DNA of 64,000 bases from an uncultured archaeon (GTDB lineage: Archaea > Thermoproteota > Nitrososphaeria > Nitrososphaerales > Gagatemarchaeaceae): the NCBI GenBank assembly GCA_963799775.1, contig CAWCYD010000003.1, positions 416,001-480,000 of the forward strand. The letters run 5' to 3'. The notes beneath the pieces are model-generated. The model was not told the origin of the DNA and ran no database searches. It saw only the letters and a list, made by a program, of their open reading frames with translations. Shown here one piece after another: positions 1 to 50,375 of the stretch. The translations under genes were made by a program, and so were the position numbers. Numbering within the stretch: position 1 is the first letter of the stretch; every line of letters begins with the position of its first letter.

Positions 1-756
1 GGAGAGGCAATCGAGACTGTCGAGACGGTCGTCGCGCTTGTCATCGACCGTGTGAAGATGGCGTCCGTCGGGGTTCTCGGCGAGACCAGGGCTGCGACCG
101 ACGACGGCGAGACGAGATACCTGAGACCCCGCCCAGGCGCCGCCAGGATGTACCCCGAGACGGACATACCTGAGATAGCCATCACGGAGGAGACGAAGCG
201 CCGCTTGGCCGCCAAGCTCCCCGTCCCCTGGCAAGAGAGGGTCGCGGAGTACTCGAAGAGATACCAGCTCAGCCAAGAGGCTGCGGTCCAGCTCTTCGAC
301 TCTGAGTATTCCGGGCTCTTCGAGGAGCTCGCCACGAAGCTGAAACTCGAGCCGTCGGTCATCGCCTCGGTACTCGTCGAGATCCCCGTTCGCCTCTCCC
401 GCGAAGGGATAGACGAATCCAAGATCACTCCCGAGCTGCTCGCCTCAGCGCTCTGGGCCTTGGACGGGGGAAGGTTCGCAAAGGAAGCCACCATCGAGAT
501 ACTTCGCACCATCGGCAAGGGCGAGGCCCGTGACGTGGACGAGGCGGCCTCGAAGCTGGGCCTTGCGGGAATGGGAGACGAGGAACTCGCGAAGATCATC
601 GAAGGCGTGGTTGAGCGGAACCGAGAGCTGATCCGCAACAAAGGAGACCGCGCCTTCAGCGTCCTGATGGGCGAGGTCATGAAGCTCGCGAGGGGGAGGG
701 TAGACGGACAGAAGGTAAGCAAACTGCTCCATCAAGCCATCGAGCGAGCCAGCTGA
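1..756 (+). CDS. gatE: Glu-tRNA(Gln) amidotransferase subunit E, 3' part
   Basis: ETR..DG.T.YLRPRPGAARMYPETDIP motif and a C-terminal Yqey-like domain (LMGEVMKLARGRVDG); 5' end lies outside the window. Confidence 0.93.
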   Translation, partial: GEAIETVETVVALVIDRVKMASVGVLGETRAATDDGETRYLRPRPGAARMYPETDIPEIAITEETKRRLAAKLPVPWQERVAEYSKRYQLSQEAAVQLFDSEYSGLFEELATKLKLEPSVIASVLVEIPVRLSREGIDESKITPELLASALWALDGGRFAKEATIEILRTIGKGEARDVDEAASKLGLAGMGDEELAKIIEGVVERNRELIRNKGDRAFSVLMGEVMKLARGRVDGQKVSKLLHQAIERAS

Positions 757-804
757 ATTCTCGTACGCCCGCGCTCCGAGCCCTCTCTGGACGTCGTCTG
801 AGAA

Positions 805-1010
805 ACTCTCGCGACGAAGGCTCCGTCAGCTCTTCGGTTCATGATGCCTCGGAGCCAACTTGCCTGGCATCTGCTCCTGGGATCACCGTAGTCGTCAGGT
901 TCCCATTCATCGCTTCACATGCAGGCCCTTCCGCCCCTTCCTTTACAGGAGGAGGCAGGGAACTGGCAAGCCTTGACAGCCCCCTATCCGCCAGATTGGC
1001 CACCGCGTTG
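805..1010 (-). ncRNA. putative omega-RNA (reRNA) overlapping the tnpB 3' end; guide from the flank GGAGCCTTCGTCGCGAGAG
   Basis: About 850-1000 is nearly identical between the two tnpB copies, unlike the rest of the gene; expected position for TnpB guide RNAs; boundaries approximate. Confidence 0.6.
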
Positions 1011-2129
1011 CCGTCGCGGTGGACCCACTCCTTGCACCTCGGACACCAGAGGTGTCTCCTGTGTCTGAGGTCTCCTCTCGCAGGCCTGCAGAGCTTCTCC
1101 CCGCATGCTGAATGGATGGATGAAGACCCTCTGGTCTCTCCCCTTGTCAGCTTAACGACGGCCACTCCCTTGTTCGCCGCCTTGTAGCCCAGCATCTCAT
1201 ACTCCCTTCTATGCGGCCAGGAGTTCATCCTGAACCTATAGGCTCGACCTTTCCCGTTCCCCTTTCGATAGATCTTGTTGATGCCGGTGATGTCCTCGAG
1301 CGCGATTGCAGCTCCGGTCGACCTTGCTCTCTCGACGATCTGGTTAGTCGCGCGATGGAGCATCTGGTTCGTCCTGTCGCTCGCCCTCTTCCAGTACTTT
1401 TGCGCGAGCCTCCTCGCTATTCTCACGTCGTCCCTCTTGAAGGAAGCAAGGATCTCCCTCGTCGTCTGCTTCACTTTCACCATCCTTGAGAGGTCAACAT
1501 GCTCGAACCCTTCTCGGTCACCGTAAGTGAGGTTCTTCTCGTTCCTATCCACGCCCAGTACCCGCCTTGGCTCGATGTCCGCTACCTGGGTCGAGTAGCA
1601 TATCGCGACTCTGCCCTCCGTGATCGTCAGGCTCCTCATCTTCATGCCTGGTGTCGAGACCTTCGAGAGAGCATACCTGTTGAGCTGGACCATCTCGAAT
1701 CTGTCGTGCCCGAGGGAGATGAACAGCTTGCCCGTCGCTGTCACGAAGAATCCCCTGATTATGCATGCGGCTAGCTTCAAGGGCTTGCGGTGACTGACTC
1801 GGACGCCTCTCCTTTCGCTCTTCTCCCTGCTCCTGAGCACTGCGCATGCACGAGTTATTACTGCGGCCTTGAAAGATGATGGGAGGTCCACATCGCGGAT
1901 CGATCGGTAGAATCCCTTCATCTCCGTCCTGTTCTTGATACGGTTGCTCTCGGCGTACCGAATCGCATTGTATGTCAAGGTCCTGCATTGAGAGAGGATC
2001 TCGCGAAGGCGAGCATTGTCGTGGGGCTGCCACACCGACAGCCTCCCGAGGGACATTATGTCAGCATGATTCTAGAGTAGATAAGCGCCCATGCCCCAGC
2101 CTCATCTCGTCATGAGCCGAAGAGTCAAC
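825..2129 (-). mobile_element. TnpB-only (IS1341-like) element, copy 1
   Basis: Homology to copy 2 (48956-50257) stops at GTCAGC (825) and GTCAAC (2129); imperfect 20-bp inverted ends; no tnpA. Confidence 0.8.
839..2056 (-). CDS. tnpB: TnpB RNA-guided endonuclease
   Basis: RuvC motifs LGVDRN, IALEDI, HRDGNA intact; HxxC/CxxC zinc finger; 405 aa. Confidence 0.9.
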   Translation of the reverse strand: MSLGRLSVWQPHDNARLREILSQCRTLTYNAIRYAESNRIKNRTEMKGFYRSIRDVDLPSSFKAAVITRACAVLRSREKSERRGVRVSHRKPLKLAACIIRGFFVTATGKLFISLGHDRFEMVQLNRYALSKVSTPGMKMRSLTITEGRVAICYSTQVADIEPRRVLGVDRNEKNLTYGDREGFEHVDLSRMVKVKQTTREILASFKRDDVRIARRLAQKYWKRASDRTNQMLHRATNQIVERARSTGAAIALEDITGINKIYRKGNGKGRAYRFRMNSWPHRREYEMLGYKAANKGVAVVKLTRGETRGSSSIHSACGEKLCRPARGDLRHRRHLWCPRCKEWVHRDGNAVANLADRGLSRLASSLPPPVKEGAEGPACEAMNGNLTTTVIPGADARQVGSEAS

Positions 2130-2205
2130 GGATAACAGAGCCGCGACGAAGATACTCTTGCGTTCGTTGCACGCCTTTAATTGACAGGCCTAGAAATCGG
2201 TCGCG

Positions 2206-2499
2206 TTGGAATCACTTCGGAAATTCAACCAGAGGTTACGCCTTTGGGAAATCTATCTCTCAGGCATTTTAGGCATTCCAATCTTGCTCTTTCTCTTGTG
2301 GAAATGGAACCAGATTTCCACGACTGAATTCGGCGATGCCATCGCCTTCGTTGCCGTATGGGTTTGGGCTTTCTGCGTCTATCGACTATTCACGCTGAAG
2401 TTCCAGCCAAAGAAAGAGAAAGACGAAGTGGCAACAGCAATTTTGGCTCTCGTTCAGGAAATGAAGAAAGACAGAGAAGAAAGAAACTCTAAGCCTTGA
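2206..2499 (+). CDS. small 2-TM membrane protein (passenger)
   Basis: 97-aa ORF with two hydrophobic segments, AT-rich, inside the TIRs. Confidence 0.6.
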   Translation: MESLRKFNQRLRLWEIYLSGILGIPILLFLLWKWNQISTTEFGDAIAFVAVWVWAFCVYRLFTLKFQPKKEKDEVATAILALVQEMKKDREERNSKP

Positions 2500-2608
2500 G
2501 ATTCTTCTTGATTTTCTGTTCCCATTCTTCTTGCGTGATGAGACCCTTCTCTTCAAGGACTTCCGCTAGGGAGGTAATCATGGCATCCAAGACCTCAGCG
2601 TTTTCCAC
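2489..2608 (-). CDS. small helical protein (passenger), not in the ORF track
   Basis: Manual translation VENAEVLDAMITSLAEVLEEKGLITQEEWEQKIKKNLKA*; start uncertain. Confidence 0.55.
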   Translation of the reverse strand: MENAEVLDAMITSLAEVLEEKGLITQEEWEQKIKKNLKA

Positions 2609-2609
2609 C

Positions 2610-2783
2610 TTACTTTTCTTTGGCGTTTCGCTTTCCTCCTTTGACTAGGTATCCGTTCTCCGAGAGCCAAGCTAAAACGATGCTCCTTATCGTGTCCGAG
2701 TATCCCTTCCCCATAGTGTCGCCTAGGTCTCGGTCGATAATGGCCCAGATTTCGTCCGGTAGTGCAACGAGTGCCTTTCTCAT
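2610..2783 (-). CDS. CopG/ribbon-helix-helix-like DNA-binding protein
   Basis: MRKALVALPDEIWAIID...YSDTIRSIVLAWL; ATGA overlap with the transposase stop. Confidence 0.65.
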   Translation of the reverse strand: MRKALVALPDEIWAIIDRDLGDTMGKGYSDTIRSIVLAWLSENGYLVKGGKRNAKEK

Positions 2784-3685
2784 CGTGAAGCCACCTGCAC
2801 AGGAGCGATTGCGATTCTCTCCTGACTTTCTGGTTGCAAGGCCTCCTTTCGTGTGGCGTTTTCTACCAACGCCTTCCATCCCTTCAGGGCGATCCCGGCC
2901 TGCTCCGCCGGAGTCTTCCCCTTCAAGGCCATGTGAGGCCTCGCGAAATTGTAATTCACGACATATCCCTCTAGGATTATCCTCGCGCTGTCTTCGTTCT
3001 TGAATCCCCGCATAGGTCGGGTTCGCTCCTTCACGGTCTCATGGAGTCTCTCGACAATGTTGTTTGTCTCCCTCGACCGAATGCCGACCCTCTTCACTAG
3101 CTCAGGCCTTGCGACCTTGTATCGAGACCAAAAGACCGTGTTGAAAGCTTGGTCATACTGGTTCGAGCCGTCCACATACAAGACGTTTGGCTTGCGCTTG
3201 GCCGACTCTAGCCCCTTCCGGAATTGGGCGATTGTGTCCTTGAGGCTTCGCGTCTCGGAAAGATGTGATGCTACCAAAAACCTCGTCTCCTCATCTATCA
3301 TCTCCCAGAACCACACGTTTTGACCCTCGCATCGGATAACGGTCTCGTCGTGATGCCACCTTCCAATCTGGGGCGAGAGGGTCTTCACATACTCGGAAAC
3401 GAGCTTCGAGTATTTCTGAACCCACCGCCAAACGGTCGTCTGGTTCACCTTCTCCCCGTAGATGCTCTCAAGCTGGCGAGAGACCTTCTGCGCGGAGAGG
3501 CCTTCGAAATACATGGAGAGCGCGGTCAGTATGGCGTGCTTGTTCACCCTCATCGCCGGAAGGCTATCGTTATCGATAGACCGCTTCCCGCATTCGTTGC
3601 ACCTAATCATCTTCTTGCCGCGCATGGAACCGGCTGGCTTCACGCATTCCGAGAGGCAGTTCTTGCAAGGCATGATTCGACGCAT
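2780..3685 (-). CDS. IS6-family-like DDE transposase with N-terminal Zn ribbon and HTH
   Basis: CxxC..CxxC, TTVWRWVQKY, WHHDET, VDG, NNIVERLHETVKER, YNFARPH. Confidence 0.88.
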   Translation of the reverse strand: MRRIMPCKNCLSECVKPAGSMRGKKMIRCNECGKRSIDNDSLPAMRVNKHAILTALSMYFEGLSAQKVSRQLESIYGEKVNQTTVWRWVQKYSKLVSEYVKTLSPQIGRWHHDETVIRCEGQNVWFWEMIDEETRFLVASHLSETRSLKDTIAQFRKGLESAKRKPNVLYVDGSNQYDQAFNTVFWSRYKVARPELVKRVGIRSRETNNIVERLHETVKERTRPMRGFKNEDSARIILEGYVVNYNFARPHMALKGKTPAEQAGIALKGWKALVENATRKEALQPESQERIAIAPVQVASR

Positions 3686-3731
3686 ATCCCTATGGATATG
3701 CCACTACTTAAGCATATATCCATATGGATAT
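3682..3731. promoter_or_regulatory. two palindromic operators flanking a TATA-like box
   Basis: ATATCCCTATGGATAT (3684-3699) and perfect ATATCCATATGGATAT (3716-3731) around CTTAAG. Confidence 0.65.
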
Positions 3732-4038
3732 TTCGGTCATGAAGGGTCGATTTGTCAGACTTAAGCTGTTGAAGTCTCCAAGATATGCGATGGACACAGA
3801 TTTGGACATGACCGACACTAGGGTTTGTCTCGCGTGCAAGACTACGATGGGTCGGCTTGTAGTCAAGGGCATTGGAAAAGCGACTGACCTCACCTTCGGA
3901 ATCTCCCAAATTCTCGACCAGAGGACCGGAGACAATCGGGCGATTGTAGAGACTCTTGGCGCTATGGCCTTCATGTGTCCGAAATGCGGCCACCTTCAGT
4001 TTTATGGGCGAACGATATCTGGTCGAGCCATTCCTTAG
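3724..4038 (+). CDS. small zinc-ribbon protein (passenger)
   Basis: CLAC...CPKCGHLQFY; true start probably downstream (about 3790-3808). Confidence 0.65.
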   Translation: MDISVMKGRFVRLKLLKSPRYAMDTDLDMTDTRVCLACKTTMGRLVVKGIGKATDLTFGISQILDQRTGDNRAIVETLGAMAFMCPKCGHLQFYGRTISGRAIP

Positions 4039-4110
4039 CTGTGCAACGAACGCAAGAGTATCCGCGACGAATGACGCTTAAATAACTACGCAGACTCCTC
4101 AGAAGAGTCC

Positions 4111-4728
4111 ATGCCTGAAGATATTGGGATTATCAAGATTAGAGTGAAGTCCGGAGAGAGCGAAGCCGAGATCGAGACGTCGATGTCGAACATGAGGCAG
4201 GCGATCGAGTTTATCCCGGAGGTCTTGGCAAAGCTGCCTCAACAGGCGCTGACAAGGAGGCAGATCCACTCGTCGATGGCCGTCGAGACCCCCGCCGCGA
4301 CCCACACGCACGCAGAGGGGCCTTCCGAGGCGCCAGCAGTCTCGGCTTCGTCTGCCATACCCGCCGTCACGGTCGACAAGGGTGACTCGCTCAGCGACGT
4401 GATCTCAAAGTTCTTCGCAGACACGTGGGGACGAAGCCCTAGGAAGCTGATGGACGTGAGGGAGGCCCTGCAATCATACGGGCTGAACTACCCGAAGCAG
4501 TCGGTCGCCGTCGCGCTGCTAAGGCTTGCAAAGGCCTCGAAGATTCGGCGCTTCAAGGCTGAGGGCGGAGAGTACGTCTACACGGCGACGACAGGTGCCA
4601 TCCGCGGACCAGCGCCGATGCAACCCTCCCCAAGTCCCTCCAGCGTCGAGACCCCGGAGCCCGCGCAACTTGAAGGCGATGCTCAGATGGAAGAGCAGCT
4701 CAACCTGGACGTGCCCTCTCGCAACTGA
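4111..4728 (+). CDS. hypothetical protein with C-terminal winged helix
   Basis: N-terminal KIRVKSGESEAEIE; PRKLMDVREAL..YPKQSVAVALLRL..KIRR wHTH pattern. Confidence 0.7.
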   Translation: MPEDIGIIKIRVKSGESEAEIETSMSNMRQAIEFIPEVLAKLPQQALTRRQIHSSMAVETPAATHTHAEGPSEAPAVSASSAIPAVTVDKGDSLSDVISKFFADTWGRSPRKLMDVREALQSYGLNYPKQSVAVALLRLAKASKIRRFKAEGGEYVYTATTGAIRGPAPMQPSPSPSSVETPEPAQLEGDAQMEEQLNLDVPSRN

Positions 4729-48144: not shown

Positions 48145-48930
48145 CTAGGGGACGGAATCGGCCAGCTTCCTTCCGAACACGAGATACGCCGTGTGGCCGA
48201 CCATGAACGAAGAGGGCCGCGTCATGCCGACCCTGGCCTCTATGTTTCGCATGATGAGCTCGAGCGTCTCGGTGGCCGTGAAACCTTCGTCGTGGAGCGT
48301 CTGGACGAGCCTCTCGGCCTGGTTCATCGTCGGACAGATCGCCGCGAGCATCGCCGAAGGCGCGAGCGCCTCCTTGACAGGCTTGACGAGCTCCCACGGG
48401 TCGCCCATGTCGAGAAGGGCGGCGTCAAGGTCCCTCTCCTCGACGCCGAGCTTTGCGTCCTGGCTCTTCAGCGTGACGTGCTTGTCGAGTCCGAAGCGTT
48501 CAAGGTTTCGCTTCGCACCTCCTTGAAACTCTGGATTGACGTCATAGCTGTAGACATGCCCCTCGGGGGCCACCGAGAAGGCCATGGCGGCGGTCGCGGC
48601 CCCGCTACCTGTGCCAGCCTCGAAGACCCTGCTCCCAGAGTGGATCCCACACTTGACAATGATCATCGCGATGTCCTTGGGGTAGATGACCTGCGTCGTC
48701 CTGGTGAACTTCATGACGATGTCCTCGAGGGTGGGCTTGAGTATGGTCAGCTCGTCGTTGAGCGTGGTTAGGCCACGTATCCCATAGTCCTTCCCCACCA
48801 GCGAGGTCAGGTCCAGGATGCCCAGGTGGGTGTGCAGCTTCGGAGTCTCTGAGGGGCGGACCAGCCACTTCCTCCTCTTGTCCCGGTAGACGAGAATGAA
48901 GGAATCCTCTCTGATCTTCTCGGCAGGCAT
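48145..48930 (-). CDS. trmI: tRNA (adenine-N1)-methyltransferase
   Basis: HTHLG, TQVIYPKD, EAGTGSG, LDMGDPW, VGHTAYL. Confidence 0.93.
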   Translation of the reverse strand: MPAEKIREDSFILVYRDKRRKWLVRPSETPKLHTHLGILDLTSLVGKDYGIRGLTTLNDELTILKPTLEDIVMKFTRTTQVIYPKDIAMIIVKCGIHSGSRVFEAGTGSGAATAAMAFSVAPEGHVYSYDVNPEFQGGAKRNLERFGLDKHVTLKSQDAKLGVEERDLDAALLDMGDPWELVKPVKEALAPSAMLAAICPTMNQAERLVQTLHDEGFTATETLELIMRNIEARVGMTRPSSFMVGHTAYLVFGRKLADSVP

Positions 48931-48955
48931 CTTCTCGGCCGCCTCCCGTGGCTTT

Positions 48956-50257
48956 GTTAACTCTTTGGTCCATGCGCGATGGAGCCAACTTGCCTGGCAT
49001 CTGCTCCTGGGATCACCGTAGTCGTGGGTTTCCCGTTCACCGCTTCACATGCAGGCCCTTCCGCCCCTTCCTTTACAGGAGGAGGCAGGGAACTGGCAAG
49101 CCTTGACAGCCCCCTATCCGCCAGATTGTCCACCGCGTTGCCGTCGCGGTGGACCCATGCCTCGCATCTCGAGCACCAGAGGTGTCTCCTGTGCCTGAGG
49201 TCTTTTCTTTCCGGTCTGCGGAGCTTCTCCCCACATGTTGAATGGATAGATGAAGACCCTCTGGTCTCTCCCCTTGTCAGCTTAACGACGGCCACTCCCT
49301 TGGTCGCCGCCTTGTAGCCCAGCATCTCGTAGGATTTTCTGTGAGGCCACGTGTTCATCCTGAACCTATAGTCTCTACCTTTTCCGTTCCCCTTCCGGTA
49401 CATCTTGTTGATGCCTGTGATGTCCTCGAGCGCGATCGCAGCTCCGGTCGACCTCGCCTCCTCGACGATCTGGTTCGTCGCGCGGTGGAGCATCTGATTG
49501 GTCCTGTCGTTCGCCTTCTTCCAGTACTTTTGCGCGAGCCTTCTCCGTATCCGCACGTCGTCTCTCTTGAAGGAGCCCAGAATCTCTCGTGTCGTCTGCT
49601 TCACTTTCACTATTCTTGAAAGGTCGATTTGCTCGAACCCTTCCCGGTTGCCGTACGTTAGGTTCTTCTCGTTCCTGTCCACGCCGAGGACTCGCCTCGT
49701 CTCGATCGGTTCGACCTCGGTCGAGTAGCATATTGCGATCCTGTCCTCCGTGATCGTCATGCTCCTCATCTTGATGCCGGGCAGGGAGACTTTGGAGAAG
49801 GCATACCTGTTGAGCTGCACCATCTCAAATCTCTCATGACCCAGGGAGACGAAGAGCTTGCCTGTTACCGTTACGAAGAATCCTCTGACTATGCATGCGG
49901 CGAGCTTCAGCGGCTTCCGATATCTGACTCGGATGCCTCTCTTCTCGCTCTTCCTTCTGCTCCTGAGGACGGCGCATGCGCGAGTGATCACTGCGACCTT
50001 GAAAGACGACGGGAGGTCTACGTCGCGGATCGATCGGTAGAACCCTTTCATCTGCCTCCTGTTATTGATACGGTTACTCTCAGCGTACTGGATCGCGCTG
50101 TATGTCAGTGTCCTGCATTGAGAGAGGATGTTGCGAAGGCGATAGCTATCGTGGGGCTGCCATACAGATAGCGTCCCGATGGGCACGAGTTACCATGATT
50201 CTGGACTAGATAAGCGCCCATGCCCAGCCTCCTCTGGCGATGAGCCGAGGAGTTGAC
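48956..50257 (-). mobile_element. TnpB-only element, copy 2
   Basis: Homologous to 825-2129 including the non-coding ends; bounded by GTTAAC and GTTGAC. Confidence 0.8.
48957..50186 (-). CDS. tnpB: TnpB RNA-guided endonuclease
   Basis: Same intact RuvC D/E/D motifs; close paralog of 839-2056. Confidence 0.9.
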   Translation of the reverse strand: MPIGTLSVWQPHDSYRLRNILSQCRTLTYSAIQYAESNRINNRRQMKGFYRSIRDVDLPSSFKVAVITRACAVLRSRRKSEKRGIRVRYRKPLKLAACIVRGFFVTVTGKLFVSLGHERFEMVQLNRYAFSKVSLPGIKMRSMTITEDRIAICYSTEVEPIETRRVLGVDRNEKNLTYGNREGFEQIDLSRIVKVKQTTREILGSFKRDDVRIRRRLAQKYWKKANDRTNQMLHRATNQIVEEARSTGAAIALEDITGINKMYRKGNGKGRDYRFRMNTWPHRKSYEMLGYKAATKGVAVVKLTRGETRGSSSIHSTCGEKLRRPERKDLRHRRHLWCSRCEAWVHRDGNAVDNLADRGLSRLASSLPPPVKEGAEGPACEAVNGKPTTTVIPGADARQVGSIAHGPKS

Positions 50258-50375
50258 AAACTTCCTCCCATTAACGTTTATATGAGTTGCAGGTATATTA
50301 GCGAATAATAGGCGAATCAGAACCGATTCTTCCTAGAACCTTTCCCTAGTCTCTATTCCCTCTTTTATCTCTCGA

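What the first reader, a model, noticed from the sequence alone, without database searches (positions are those of the whole stretch)
822..2132. TnpB-only elements with inverted ends that sit in 12-bp near-palindromic sites
Seen: both copies (825-2129, 48956-50257) encode TnpB with intact RuvC residues and no TnpA. Copy 1 ends match 16/20 as inverted repeats (GTCAGCTCTTCGGTTCATGA versus the reverse complement of TCATGAGCCGAAGAGTCAAC), and copy 2 is similar. The three bases outside the ends differ between copies but are mutually complementary in each (TCC..GGA; TTT..AAA), so the empty sites reconstruct as TCCGTCAACGGA and TTTGTTGACAAA. Established: canonical IS200/IS605 ends are not terminal inverted repeats, and their targets are short non-palindromic motifs. 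Inference: this TnpB group may be mobilised by a symmetric mechanism or may target hairpins, using a trans-acting enzyme not in the window.
Basis: partly seen in the sequence, partly recalled or inferred. Interest (0 to 1): 0.72.

Follow-up and report, generated by a model that had tools for sequence, protein, structure and literature searches.

The report
TnpB riding an IS6-like transposon
The two TnpB genes sit in small hitch-hiking transposons that have the inverted ends and 8-bp target duplications of IS6-type jumping genes, not the anatomy of IS200/IS605, and they land exactly 6 bp from a promoter TATA box.

Summary
Both copies are real, encode intact TnpB and lack TnpA.

True limits:
- Copy 1 is window 819-2142, flanked by GCGACGAA on both sides (8/8).
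- Copy 2 is 48950-50263, flanked by CCTCCCGT/CCTCCCAT (7/8).
- The "complementary flank triplets" are positions 4-6 of a ~24-bp terminal inverted repeat that starts GGYTCTGT.

Related genomes carry uninterrupted empty sites with one copy of the 8-mer: 5 genomes for copy 1, 7 for copy 2.

Across 57 relatives from Nitrososphaerota, 30 keep a 7-8/8 duplication, against about 1% in the control. Transposase-bearing IS6-like elements (PF13610) of the same genus share these ends, up to 22/24, and make 8-9-bp duplications.

The right end also forms the last hairpin of a conserved guide RNA; 16 of its 36 predicted pairs show compensatory changes.

Insertions lie 6 bp from a TATA-like box (25-26 of 29), always with the left end nearest the box.

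Best reading: non-autonomous IS6-like elements carrying TnpB and its guide RNA, moved in trans by a DDE transposase. DDE-linked TnpBs with inverted ends are in print. I found neither the IS6 link nor the TATA rule in print, but this scan noted both earlier in other genomes.

The parts
811..818 (.). Target-site duplication of copy 1, right-end side (GCGACGAA)
   Evidence: Identical 8-mer at 2143-2150. Present once in the empty sites of 5 related genomes.
819..2142 (-). Copy 1: complete non-autonomous TnpB element, 1324 bp
   Evidence: Bounded by the inverted repeat and an 8/8 duplication. Absent from the orthologous site in 5 relatives.
819..842 (-). Right-end inverted repeat of copy 1; it also forms the 3' arm of the last guide-RNA hairpin plus a 6-nt tail
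   Evidence: 17/24 match to the left end, 0 of 200 shuffles reach it. The last helix, columns 275-281 with 327-333, shows compensatory changes.
819..984 (-). omegaRNA-like scaffold overlapping the 3' end of tnpB
   Evidence: nhmmer hit with E 4.7e-29 using the family profile. 36 predicted pairs, 16 of them with compensatory changes, in 50 sequences. Synonymous divergence falls from 0.5-0.7 to 0.16-0.30 in this part. No Rfam match.
839..2056 (-). tnpB of copy 1, 405 aa
   Evidence: PF07282. D170/E254/D348 invariant. Fold matches Cas12f and TnpB. dN/dS 0.10-0.16.
2077..2084 (-). TATA-like box inside the left end, about 20 nt upstream of the tnpB ATG: the inferred own promoter
   Evidence: Read. 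The same G-rich + TTATAT/TTAAAT box is seen in relatives' left ends. This is an inference; no transcript data were available.
2110..2142 (-). Left-end inverted repeat of copy 1, with an extra partial copy of repeat positions 4-12 (about 7 nt longer)
   Evidence: The same kind of duplication appears in L126, L146, L128 and the derivative at C3:1156640-1156986.
2143..2150 (.). Target-site duplication of copy 1, left-end side
2151..4062 (-). Separate IS6-like element, 1912 bp, with a perfect 22-bp inverted repeat, inserted in the same target. It is flanked by CGCGACGAA at 2142-2150 and 4063-4071.
   Evidence: Absent from the orthologous site in 5 relatives.
2780..3685 (-). IS6-family DDE transposase, 301 aa
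   Evidence: PF13610, E 4e-20. NF033587, 144.9 bits against a cut-off of 125.
4078..4085 (+). Host TATA box (TTAAATAA), 6 bp from the shared target 8-mer. It is the promoter of the gene whose ATG is at 4112.
   Evidence: Conserved in 5 of 5 aligned relatives, with the ATG about 25 nt downstream.
48942..48949 (.). Target-site duplication of copy 2, right-end side (CCTCCCGT)
   Evidence: 7/8 match to 50264-50271. Present once in relatives.
48950..50263 (-). Copy 2: complete non-autonomous TnpB element, 1314 bp. The outermost 3 nt of its left end have diverged.
   Evidence: Empty site in relatives.
48950..49114 (-). omegaRNA-like scaffold of copy 2
   Evidence: nhmmer E 3e-28.
48957..50186 (-). 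tnpB of copy 2, 409 aa
   Evidence: 85% identical to copy 1.
50264..50271 (.). Target-site duplication of copy 2, left-end side (CCTCCCAT)
50277..50283 (-). Host TATA box, 6 bp from the target 8-mer. In relatives it lies 23-27 nt upstream of the ATG of the gene that now starts at 48930(-), so copy 2 sits between this box and its gene.
   Evidence: 7 relatives aligned; ORF 48145-48930.

Best explanation
Each copy is a non-autonomous transposon of an archaeal IS6-like (DDE_Tnp_IS240) lineage.

ANATOMY
- Two terminal inverted repeats of about 24 bp, beginning GGYTCTGT.
- Between them, only tnpB, its own promoter and the omegaRNA.

MOBILISATION (inferred)
- An IS6-like DDE transposase made elsewhere binds both ends.
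- It joins them to staggered cuts 8 bp apart in the target. Repair of the gaps gives the 8-bp duplication.

DOUBLE DUTY OF THE RIGHT END
- The right repeat is both a transposase site and the 3' arm of the last omegaRNA hairpin.
- The guide therefore begins 6 nt after that hairpin, in the duplicated 8-mer and the host DNA beyond it.

TARGET CHOICE
- It is not random. The 8-bp target lies 6 bp from a TATA-like box, with the left end always next to the box.
- The box can belong to a gene pointing away (copy 1) or to a gene pointing the same way (copy 2).
- So the TATA box itself, or what is bound to it, is read, not the direction of the promoter.

SHOWN HERE
- Boundaries, duplications and empty alleles.
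- Ends shared with transposase-bearing elements.
- The RNA structure.
- Purifying selection on tnpB and on the ends.

INFERRED
- That the IS6-like enzyme is the mobiliser.
- That transposition follows the IS6 chemistry.
- That TnpB with its omegaRNA acts as a homing or retention nuclease on empty alleles, as in IS605.

In this genome the four copies are old (dS 0.5 or more) and no transposase with matching ends was found. They are probably not moving now.
For: BOUNDARIES
- 8/8 and 7/8 direct repeats flank the window copies.
- Genome copies 3 and 4 have 8/8 and 7/8.
- Empty alleles with a single 8-mer were found in 5 relatives for copy 1 and in 7 for copy 2.

FAMILY-WIDE DUPLICATIONS
- 71 elements were examined. 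8 lacked a usable end, 3 failed the length filter and 3 were duplicates, which leaves 57.
- At the boundary set by the inverted repeat alone: 16 have 8/8 and 8 have 7/8.
- Within +-12 nt of that boundary: 20 have 8/8 and 10 have 7/8. Controls with swapped flanks give 0.1% and 1.1%.

INVERTED REPEAT
- 15 of 27 elements score above all, or all but one, of 200 shuffles.
- L044 is perfect at 24/24.
- Two copies in G005 are only 90.7% identical overall, yet all four of their 24-nt ends are identical.

LINK TO IS6
- PF13610 occurs in 19 of 23 genomes of the genus.
- 8 of 30 such loci gave clear end pairs. All 8 have 8- or 9-bp duplications (L098 after moving the boundary by one base).
- 12 of their 16 arms match TnpB-element right ends at 16-22 of 24, above every one of 500 shuffles (maxima 14-17). 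The best is L109 against L052, 22/24.
- The first 8 nt equal the published IS6/IS26 end consensus, GGTTCTGTTGCAAA, and that family makes 8-bp duplications (PMC6807381 and PMC7986276; passages read).

omegaRNA
- 36 predicted pairs, 16 with compensatory changes, in 50 sequences.
- 17 profile hits in the genome, all at TnpB 3' ends or their deletion derivatives.
- Synonymous divergence drops over the overlap with the RNA.

TARGET
- In 29 reconstructed sites, T at -9 in 26, A at -8 in 25, A at -7 in 25, and only A or T at -12 and -10.
- The 8-mer itself and the mirror position show nothing.

PRECEDENT
- DDE-linked TnpBs with inverted ends, and solo TnpBs with the same ends, are described in PMC10691335 (section 9 read).
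Against: - No genome examined gave a transposase-bearing element and a TnpB element with identical ends. The best match, 22/24, is between two different organisms.
- The window's own IS6-like element matches at only 13/24.
- No IS6-like transposase lies within about 3 kb (or to the contig end) of tnpB in any of 104 loci, 449 kb in all. No autonomous composite is known.
- 27 of the 57 elements show 6/8 or less. I attribute this to age, indels in the left end or misplaced boundaries, but did not prove it.
- Only 2 of 8 transposase-bearing elements have the TATA-like box at exactly the same distance. 3 more are 1-5 nt off and 3 are unclear. That the transposase sets the target is therefore weakly supported.
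- Other TnpB lineages of this genome have the same kind of ends and duplications but no TATA box at that place.
- No clear TAM appears in the 5 nt upstream of the target, so the homing role of TnpB is not supported by sequence.
Confidence: 0.77

Rival explanations
1. Ordinary IS200/IS605 (IS1341-group) elements, moved as single strands by a Y1 TnpA supplied in trans. On this reading the 'inverted repeat' is only two similar subterminal hairpins.
For: TnpB-only elements are usually filed this way. The right end does fold into a hairpin.
Against: That family makes no target duplication and has no terminal inverted repeats (PMC13565253, passage read). Here 8-bp duplications and empty alleles are shown. 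PF01797 is absent from the genome. It was found in 1 of 23 genomes of the genus, and there it is not beside a tnpB.
Confidence: 0.02
2. One reading: insertion into 12-bp near-palindromic or hairpin sites.
Against: Those triplets are followed by conserved element sequence. The empty alleles of relatives contain no such palindrome. The target 8-mers show no conservation.
Confidence: 0.01
3. A different enzyme that also makes 8-bp duplications moves them (IS1595, ISL3, IS256 or an unknown one). On this reading the likeness to IS6-like ends comes from shared ancestry of the ends or from convergence.
For: No same-genome pair with identical ends was found. No IS6-like transposase lies next to any of 104 tnpB loci. 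[quoted passage not shown]
Against: 12 of 16 end arms of PF13610-bearing elements match over the whole 24 nt. Those elements make duplications of the same length. I did not search the genus for the other transposase families.
Confidence: 0.1
4. TnpB, not the transposase, chooses the site: the TATA-like box is its TAM or a TnpB-bound landmark.
For: The motif is very sharp for TnpB elements (25-26 of 29) and looser for transposase-bearing elements (2 of 8 exact). TTTAA-type target motifs are known for IS605-family members (PMC13565253, passage read). A second TnpB lineage in this genome lacks the box.
Against: The box lies 6 bp from the sequence that the guide would match, whereas a TAM abuts its target. 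New insertion sites cannot match the old guide. The IS6-like element in the window chose the very same position without carrying TnpB, and so did L088.
Confidence: 0.08

Closest known systems
DDE-transposase-associated TnpB branches with inverted terminal repeats (Altae-Tran et al. 2023, PMC10691335; section 9 read)
   Same: TnpB and its omegaRNA lie within about 250 bp of a symmetric transposon end. Solo TnpBs carry the same ends as transposase-bearing relatives, which implies mobilisation in trans.
   Different: The partners named in the texts I read are IS630 (that paper) and ISL2, IS630 and IS1031 (review PMC13565253). None of these makes 8-bp duplications to my recollection, and an IS6-like partner is not named. 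The supplements that list the six branches could not be opened.
IS6/IS26 family and its MITEs (PMC6807381 and PMC7986276; passages read)
   Same: The ends begin GG, have G at position 7, and share their first 8 nt with the family consensus. Duplications are 8 bp. Transposase-bearing relatives carry PF13610/NF033587 proteins.
   Different: No transposase in cis. The cargo is tnpB plus a guide RNA. The review mentions no TnpB, and names one family member, ISDsp3, as carrying a passenger gene. The repeat is longer (about 24 bp) and doubles as an RNA hairpin. Insertion is anchored to a TATA box. Archaeal 'IS6' may not belong to the family proper (PMC6807381).
IS200/IS605 family, IS1341 group (TnpB only)
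   Same: One gene, tnpB, with the omegaRNA overlapping its 3' end and the guide taken from the DNA beyond the right end.
   Different: That family has no inverted ends and no duplication, uses a Y1 TnpA, and inserts 3' of a fixed 4-5-nt motif. Here all of these tested features fail.
Fanzor-carrying eukaryotic DNA transposons (PMC3627910; abstract only)
   Same: A TnpB homologue rides as cargo in inverted-repeat, duplication-making DDE transposons, often in non-autonomous copies.
   Different: Those are eukaryotic or viral hosts and other transposon superfamilies. No direct relationship was tested here.

Membership tests
TnpB (OMEGA RNA-guided nuclease) | RuvC-like split nuclease with a D-E-D triad | tested here: met
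   D170, E254 and D348 are invariant in 30 of 30 aligned relatives. The assignment of these residues as the triad is recalled from known TnpB motifs.
TnpB (OMEGA RNA-guided nuclease) | Family profile and fold | tested here: met
   PF07282, 34.5 bits, above the 26.3 cut-off. TIGR01766, 36.4 bits, above 32. NF040570, 67.5 bits, is below its cut-off of 100. A sequence search of the PDB found nothing. The model matches Cas12f and TnpB structures at E 1e-15 to 1e-9.
TnpB (OMEGA RNA-guided nuclease) | Structured omegaRNA overlapping the 3' end of the gene and ending at the transposon end | tested here: met
   36 predicted pairs, 16 with compensatory changes, in 50 sequences. Synonymous divergence drops over the overlap.
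TnpB (OMEGA RNA-guided nuclease) | RNA-guided, TAM-dependent DNA cleavage | not testable with these tools
   No clear TAM in the 5 nt upstream of the target. No RNA runs were available.
IS200/IS605 (IS1341 group) | No terminal inverted repeats and no target-site duplication | tested here: not met
   Inverted repeats and 8-bp duplications are present. Empty alleles confirm them.
IS200/IS605 (IS1341 group) | Y1 (HUH) TnpA in autonomous relatives | tested here: not met
   PF01797 is found in 0 of 1 (own genome) and in 1 of 23 genomes of the genus, where it is not beside a tnpB.
IS607 | Serine-recombinase TnpA; no inverted repeats or duplication | tested here: not met
   PF00239 is absent from the genome. 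The one IS607-like element of the genus (G007) carries a TnpB only 31% identical over 131 aa.
IS6/IS26-like (non-autonomous derivative) | Inverted ends starting GG with G at position 7, related to the consensus GGTTCTGTTGCAAA | tested here: met
   The right ends read GGTTCTGT or GGCTCTGT in most of 50 sequences. The consensus is taken from PMC6807381. Beyond position 8 the ends differ from the bacterial consensus.
IS6/IS26-like (non-autonomous derivative) | 8-bp target-site duplication | tested here: met
IS6/IS26-like (non-autonomous derivative) | Ends shared with elements that encode a DDE_Tnp_IS240 transposase | tested here: met
   12 of 16 arms score 16-22 of 24, above all 500 shuffles. However, no identical pair was found within one genome.
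IS6/IS26-like (non-autonomous derivative) | Replicative transposition through cointegrates | not testable with these tools
Archaeal members are untested according to PMC6807381.

The most novel reading that the evidence does not exclude
An archaeal DDE transposon lineage uses the TATA box, or TBP bound to it, as a ruler. It inserts exactly 6 bp away, in one orientation, on either side of a promoter.

Its right tip carries TTRAC 7 nt from the duplication. That nearly re-creates the TATA-to-start spacing for a gene it has cut off from its promoter, as in copy 2: 22 nt instead of 23.

The same tip is the last hairpin of a TnpB guide RNA. Every insertion therefore arms TnpB against the empty allele of a promoter. 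This would be an RNA-guided homing system serving a DDE transposon rather than a TnpA one.
Probability: 0.3. Interest if true: 0.85.

Novelty: new variant of a known kind. Interest (0 to 1): 0.62.

Why it matters
- TnpB-only genes in archaea are routinely annotated as IS200/IS605 elements. Here a large Nitrososphaerota lineage has instead the anatomy of an IS6-type DDE transposon.
- This changes how such elements should be delimited. The guide starts 6 nt after the last hairpin and begins with the duplicated 8-mer.
- It also shows a transposon end doing double duty as a guide-RNA hairpin.
- The fixed 6-bp distance to a TATA box, with fixed orientation, would be a rare case of promoter-anchored integration in archaea.
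- It offers a testable question: is the anchor the transposase, TBP, or TnpB?

Tried and rejected
- Rfam scan of window 600-2400: no match.
- Sequence search of the PDB: no match.
- First scan of genome contigs with an alignment of only the four genome copies: nothing found. It was repeated with a broader alignment.
- A global aligner with free end gaps failed because of a renamed option and gave nonsense boundaries. It was replaced by ungapped and by home-made semi-global scoring.
- Search for a partner transposase among repeats of the own genome that begin GGYTCTGT: none found.
- Search for a partner in G005 using the exact 24-nt end of its TnpB elements. Of 8 matches, at least 7 lie at or beside TnpB-type sequence. 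One (C72) had no TnpB or transposase hit.
- tblastn of five IS6-like transposases against 104 TnpB loci: nothing.
- Sequencing runs: no RNA holder listed. One DNA run holds 0.24 of the sampled words.
Whether one of that paper's six DDE branches is this lineage stays open.
- A 'pseudo-end' idea, that the target TTTAA-N6 imitates the right tip TTAAC-N7, was compared by eye. It fits only with a 1-nt shift, so it is kept as speculation.
- Which side of the TATA box the host gene lies on could not be settled from ORF starts alone. It was settled only for the two window copies.
Full report
WHAT IS THERE

The window is part of a 2.47-Mb archaeal assembly. Relatives of the protein carry source names such as Nitrososphaerales or Thaumarchaeota archaeon.

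- tnpB at window 839-2056(-), 405 aa
- tnpB at 48957-50186(-), 409 aa

The proteins are 85% identical. Support for TnpB:
- PF07282 is above its cut-off.
- D170, E254 and D348 are invariant in 30 of 30 relatives.
- A model with pLDDT 79.4 matches Cas12f and TnpB structures at E 2.8e-15 to 9e-9.
- A sequence search of the PDB found nothing.

The genome holds two more full copies (82% and 69% identical), two short deletion derivatives and about ten more distant tnpB paralogues.

The 16/20 inverted match is real and beyond chance: 17/24 and 16/24 in an ungapped test, with 0 and 1 of 200 shuffles reaching these scores. The complementary triplets are also there. The boundaries are not.
- The terminal CC is invariant in 50 of 50 relatives.

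Directly outside the true tips lie direct repeats of 8 bp:
- Copy 1: GCGACGAA at 811-818 and 2143-2150.
- Copy 2: CCTCCCGT at 48942-48949 and CCTCCCAT at 50264-50271.
- Copies 3 and 4: 8/8 and 7/8.

Copy 1 is therefore 819-2142 and copy 2 is 48950-50263.

EMPTY ALLELES

I removed the elements in a script, kept one 8-mer, and compared the result with related genomes.
- Copy 1: 5 of 8 loci align in one piece across the junction. They show gatE, a single ...CGACGAA, a conserved TTAAATAA box and the next gene's ATG about 25 nt further on.
- Copy 2: all 7 loci that I aligned by eye (picked from the 11 compared) run through the junction into a conserved TATA box. One stays colinear for 320 nt beyond it.

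This settles that the 8-mers are target-site duplications.

THE FAMILY

- 237 proteins match at E 1e-10 or better.
- I fetched 26 loci from species genomes and 56 from metagenomes.
- 71 elements were examined. 8 lacked a usable end, 3 failed a length filter and 3 were duplicates, which leaves 57.
- With the left boundary set from the inverted repeat alone, the flanking 8-mers agree 8/8 in 16 and 7/8 in 8.
- Allowing +-12 nt for indels, 20 reach 8/8 and 10 reach 7/8. With flanks swapped between elements the figures are 0.1% and 1.1%.
- The other 27 show 6/8 or less. Old age, indels and misplaced boundaries are my explanation, and I did not test it.
- The repeat reaches 24/24 in L044. It exceeds all, or all but one, of 200 shuffles in 15 of 27 elements.
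- In G005 two copies are only 90.7% identical overall, yet all four of their 24-nt ends are identical. The ends are therefore under selection.

WHO MOVES THEM

- No Y1 TnpA and no serine recombinase is in the genome.
- In the genus, PF01797 occurs in 1 of 23 genomes and not beside a tnpB.
- PF00239 occurs in 3 of 23. One of these is an IS607-like element whose TnpB is only 31% identical over 131 aa.
- By contrast, PF13610 (IS6-type DDE) occurs in 19 of 23 genomes.
- In 8 of 30 such loci my scan found clear end pairs. All 8 have 8- or 9-bp duplications.
- 12 of their 16 arms match TnpB-element right ends at 16-22 of 24, above every one of 500 shuffles. The best is L109 against L052 at 22/24.
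- The first eight bases equal the published IS6/IS26 consensus, and that family makes 8-bp duplications (PMC6807381 and PMC7986276; passages read).
- No IS6-like transposase lies within about 3 kb (or to the contig end) of tnpB in 104 loci. The TnpB elements are therefore non-autonomous.
- I did not find an identical end pair within one genome.

THE WINDOW'S OWN IS6-LIKE ELEMENT

It occupies 2151-4062. Its transposase at 2780-3685 scores NF033587 at 144.9 bits against a cut-off of 125. It sits in the very same target as copy 1: the site (C)GCGACGAA now occurs three times. Its ends match TnpB ends at only 13/24, so it is probably not the cognate enzyme. It does show that an element without TnpB chose the same position.

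THE GUIDE RNA

- The last 165 nt or so of each element are far more conserved than the rest.
- In 50 sequences RNAalifold predicts 36 pairs, and 16 of them show compensatory changes.
- The last helix uses the AGTTRAC of the right inverted repeat and is followed by 6 nt (AGAACC) and then host DNA.
- A profile of this region finds 17 places in the genome, all at TnpB 3' ends or their derivatives, and none in 30 IS6-like loci.
- dN/dS of tnpB is 0.10-0.16. Synonymous divergence falls from 0.5-0.7 to 0.16-0.30 where the RNA overlaps the gene.
- Rfam has no match.

TARGET CHOICE

- In 29 reconstructed sites the 8-mer is unconserved.
- Positions -13 to -7 read TWTWTAA: T at -9 in 26, A at -8 in 25, A at -7 in 25.
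- The mirror position downstream shows nothing. The left end is thus always the one next to the box.
- All four genome copies and both derivatives follow the rule.
- For copy 1 the box is the conserved promoter of a gene pointing away from the element.
- For copy 2 the box is the promoter of the gene that the element now separates from it.
- The direction of the promoter therefore does not matter.
- Among transposase-bearing elements 2 of 8 have the box at the same distance, 3 are 1-5 nt off and 3 are unclear.
- A more distant TnpB lineage in this genome has similar ends and duplications (8/8 in 2 and 7/8 in 1 of 10) but no box at that place.
- What reads the box is open.

COMPARISON WITH WHAT IS KNOWN

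- IS200/IS605 and IS607 have neither inverted ends nor duplications (PMC13565253 and the abstract of PMC6188088). Membership fails on the tested features.
- DDE-linked TnpBs with inverted ends, and solo TnpBs with the same ends, are in print (PMC10691335, section 9 read). The partners named in the texts I read are IS630, ISL2 and IS1031. The supplements could not be opened.
- The IS6 review does not mention TnpB (PMC7986276; term search, 0 occurrences).
- Four library searches gave no paper linking TnpB to IS6-type ends or to TATA-anchored insertion.
- Earlier reports of this scan describe the same anatomy and promoter-side parking in other genomes. I reached the reading before seeing them and tested it here on this genome.

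VERDICT

These are non-autonomous IS6-like transposons carrying TnpB and its guide RNA: a new variant of a known kind, with an unexplained and sharp TATA-box rule.

Noticed in passing
window 2151-4062: The IS6-like element is 1.9 kb, more than twice the usual IS6 size. Besides the transposase it holds three small ORFs: 2206-2499(+) 97 aa, 2610-2879(-) 89 aa, and 3724-4038(+) 104 aa with a weak Zn-ribbon hint. None has a family match above its cut-off. It is single-copy in the genome.
   Followed up: partly
G000:C3 about 503550-503575 (locus L003), upstream of genome copy 3: A solitary left-end-like stretch, close to the left end of L069, lies about 100 nt upstream of copy 3. Its own TATA-like box is the one that copy 3 used as its landmark. 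This looks like an insertion into the stump of an older element.
   Followed up: partly
G000:C3:688067-688300 and C3:1156640-1156986: Two deletion derivatives (234 and 347 bp) keep both ends and the guide-RNA part but have lost tnpB. One has an 8/8 duplication and the other 5/8.
   Followed up: partly
window 2110-2142; also L126, L146, L128 and C3:1156640: One subfamily of left ends carries an extra partial copy of repeat positions 4-12, which makes the end about 7 nt longer.
   Followed up: no
window 48928-48975: Copy 2 separates a conserved host gene (ATG at 48930, minus strand) from its TATA box. The right tip of the element places TTAAC 22 nt from that ATG, against 23 nt for the native box in the reconstructed site. 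The tip may act as a replacement promoter. Not tested.
   Followed up: no
G000:C3:538899, 645346, 865073, 1747049 (own genome, outside the window): More distant TnpB paralogues (about 30-40% identity) also end in GGYTCTG-type tips with 8-bp duplications (8/8, 8/8, 7/8, 6/8) but have no TATA-like box at -13 to -7. Two share CTGGRATG just upstream instead.
   Followed up: partly
L101 = G000:C3:270938-274351: The genome's second PF13610 locus is an 867-bp structure with inverted arms of about 160 bp (143/163) and only a partial transposase frame. It is probably defective.
   Followed up: no
L041 = G007:C1:684376-687762: A classic IS607-like pair, a 177-aa serine recombinase followed by a 392-aa TnpB, exists in one genome of the genus. 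Several TnpB mobilisation systems therefore coexist in this group.
   Followed up: partly
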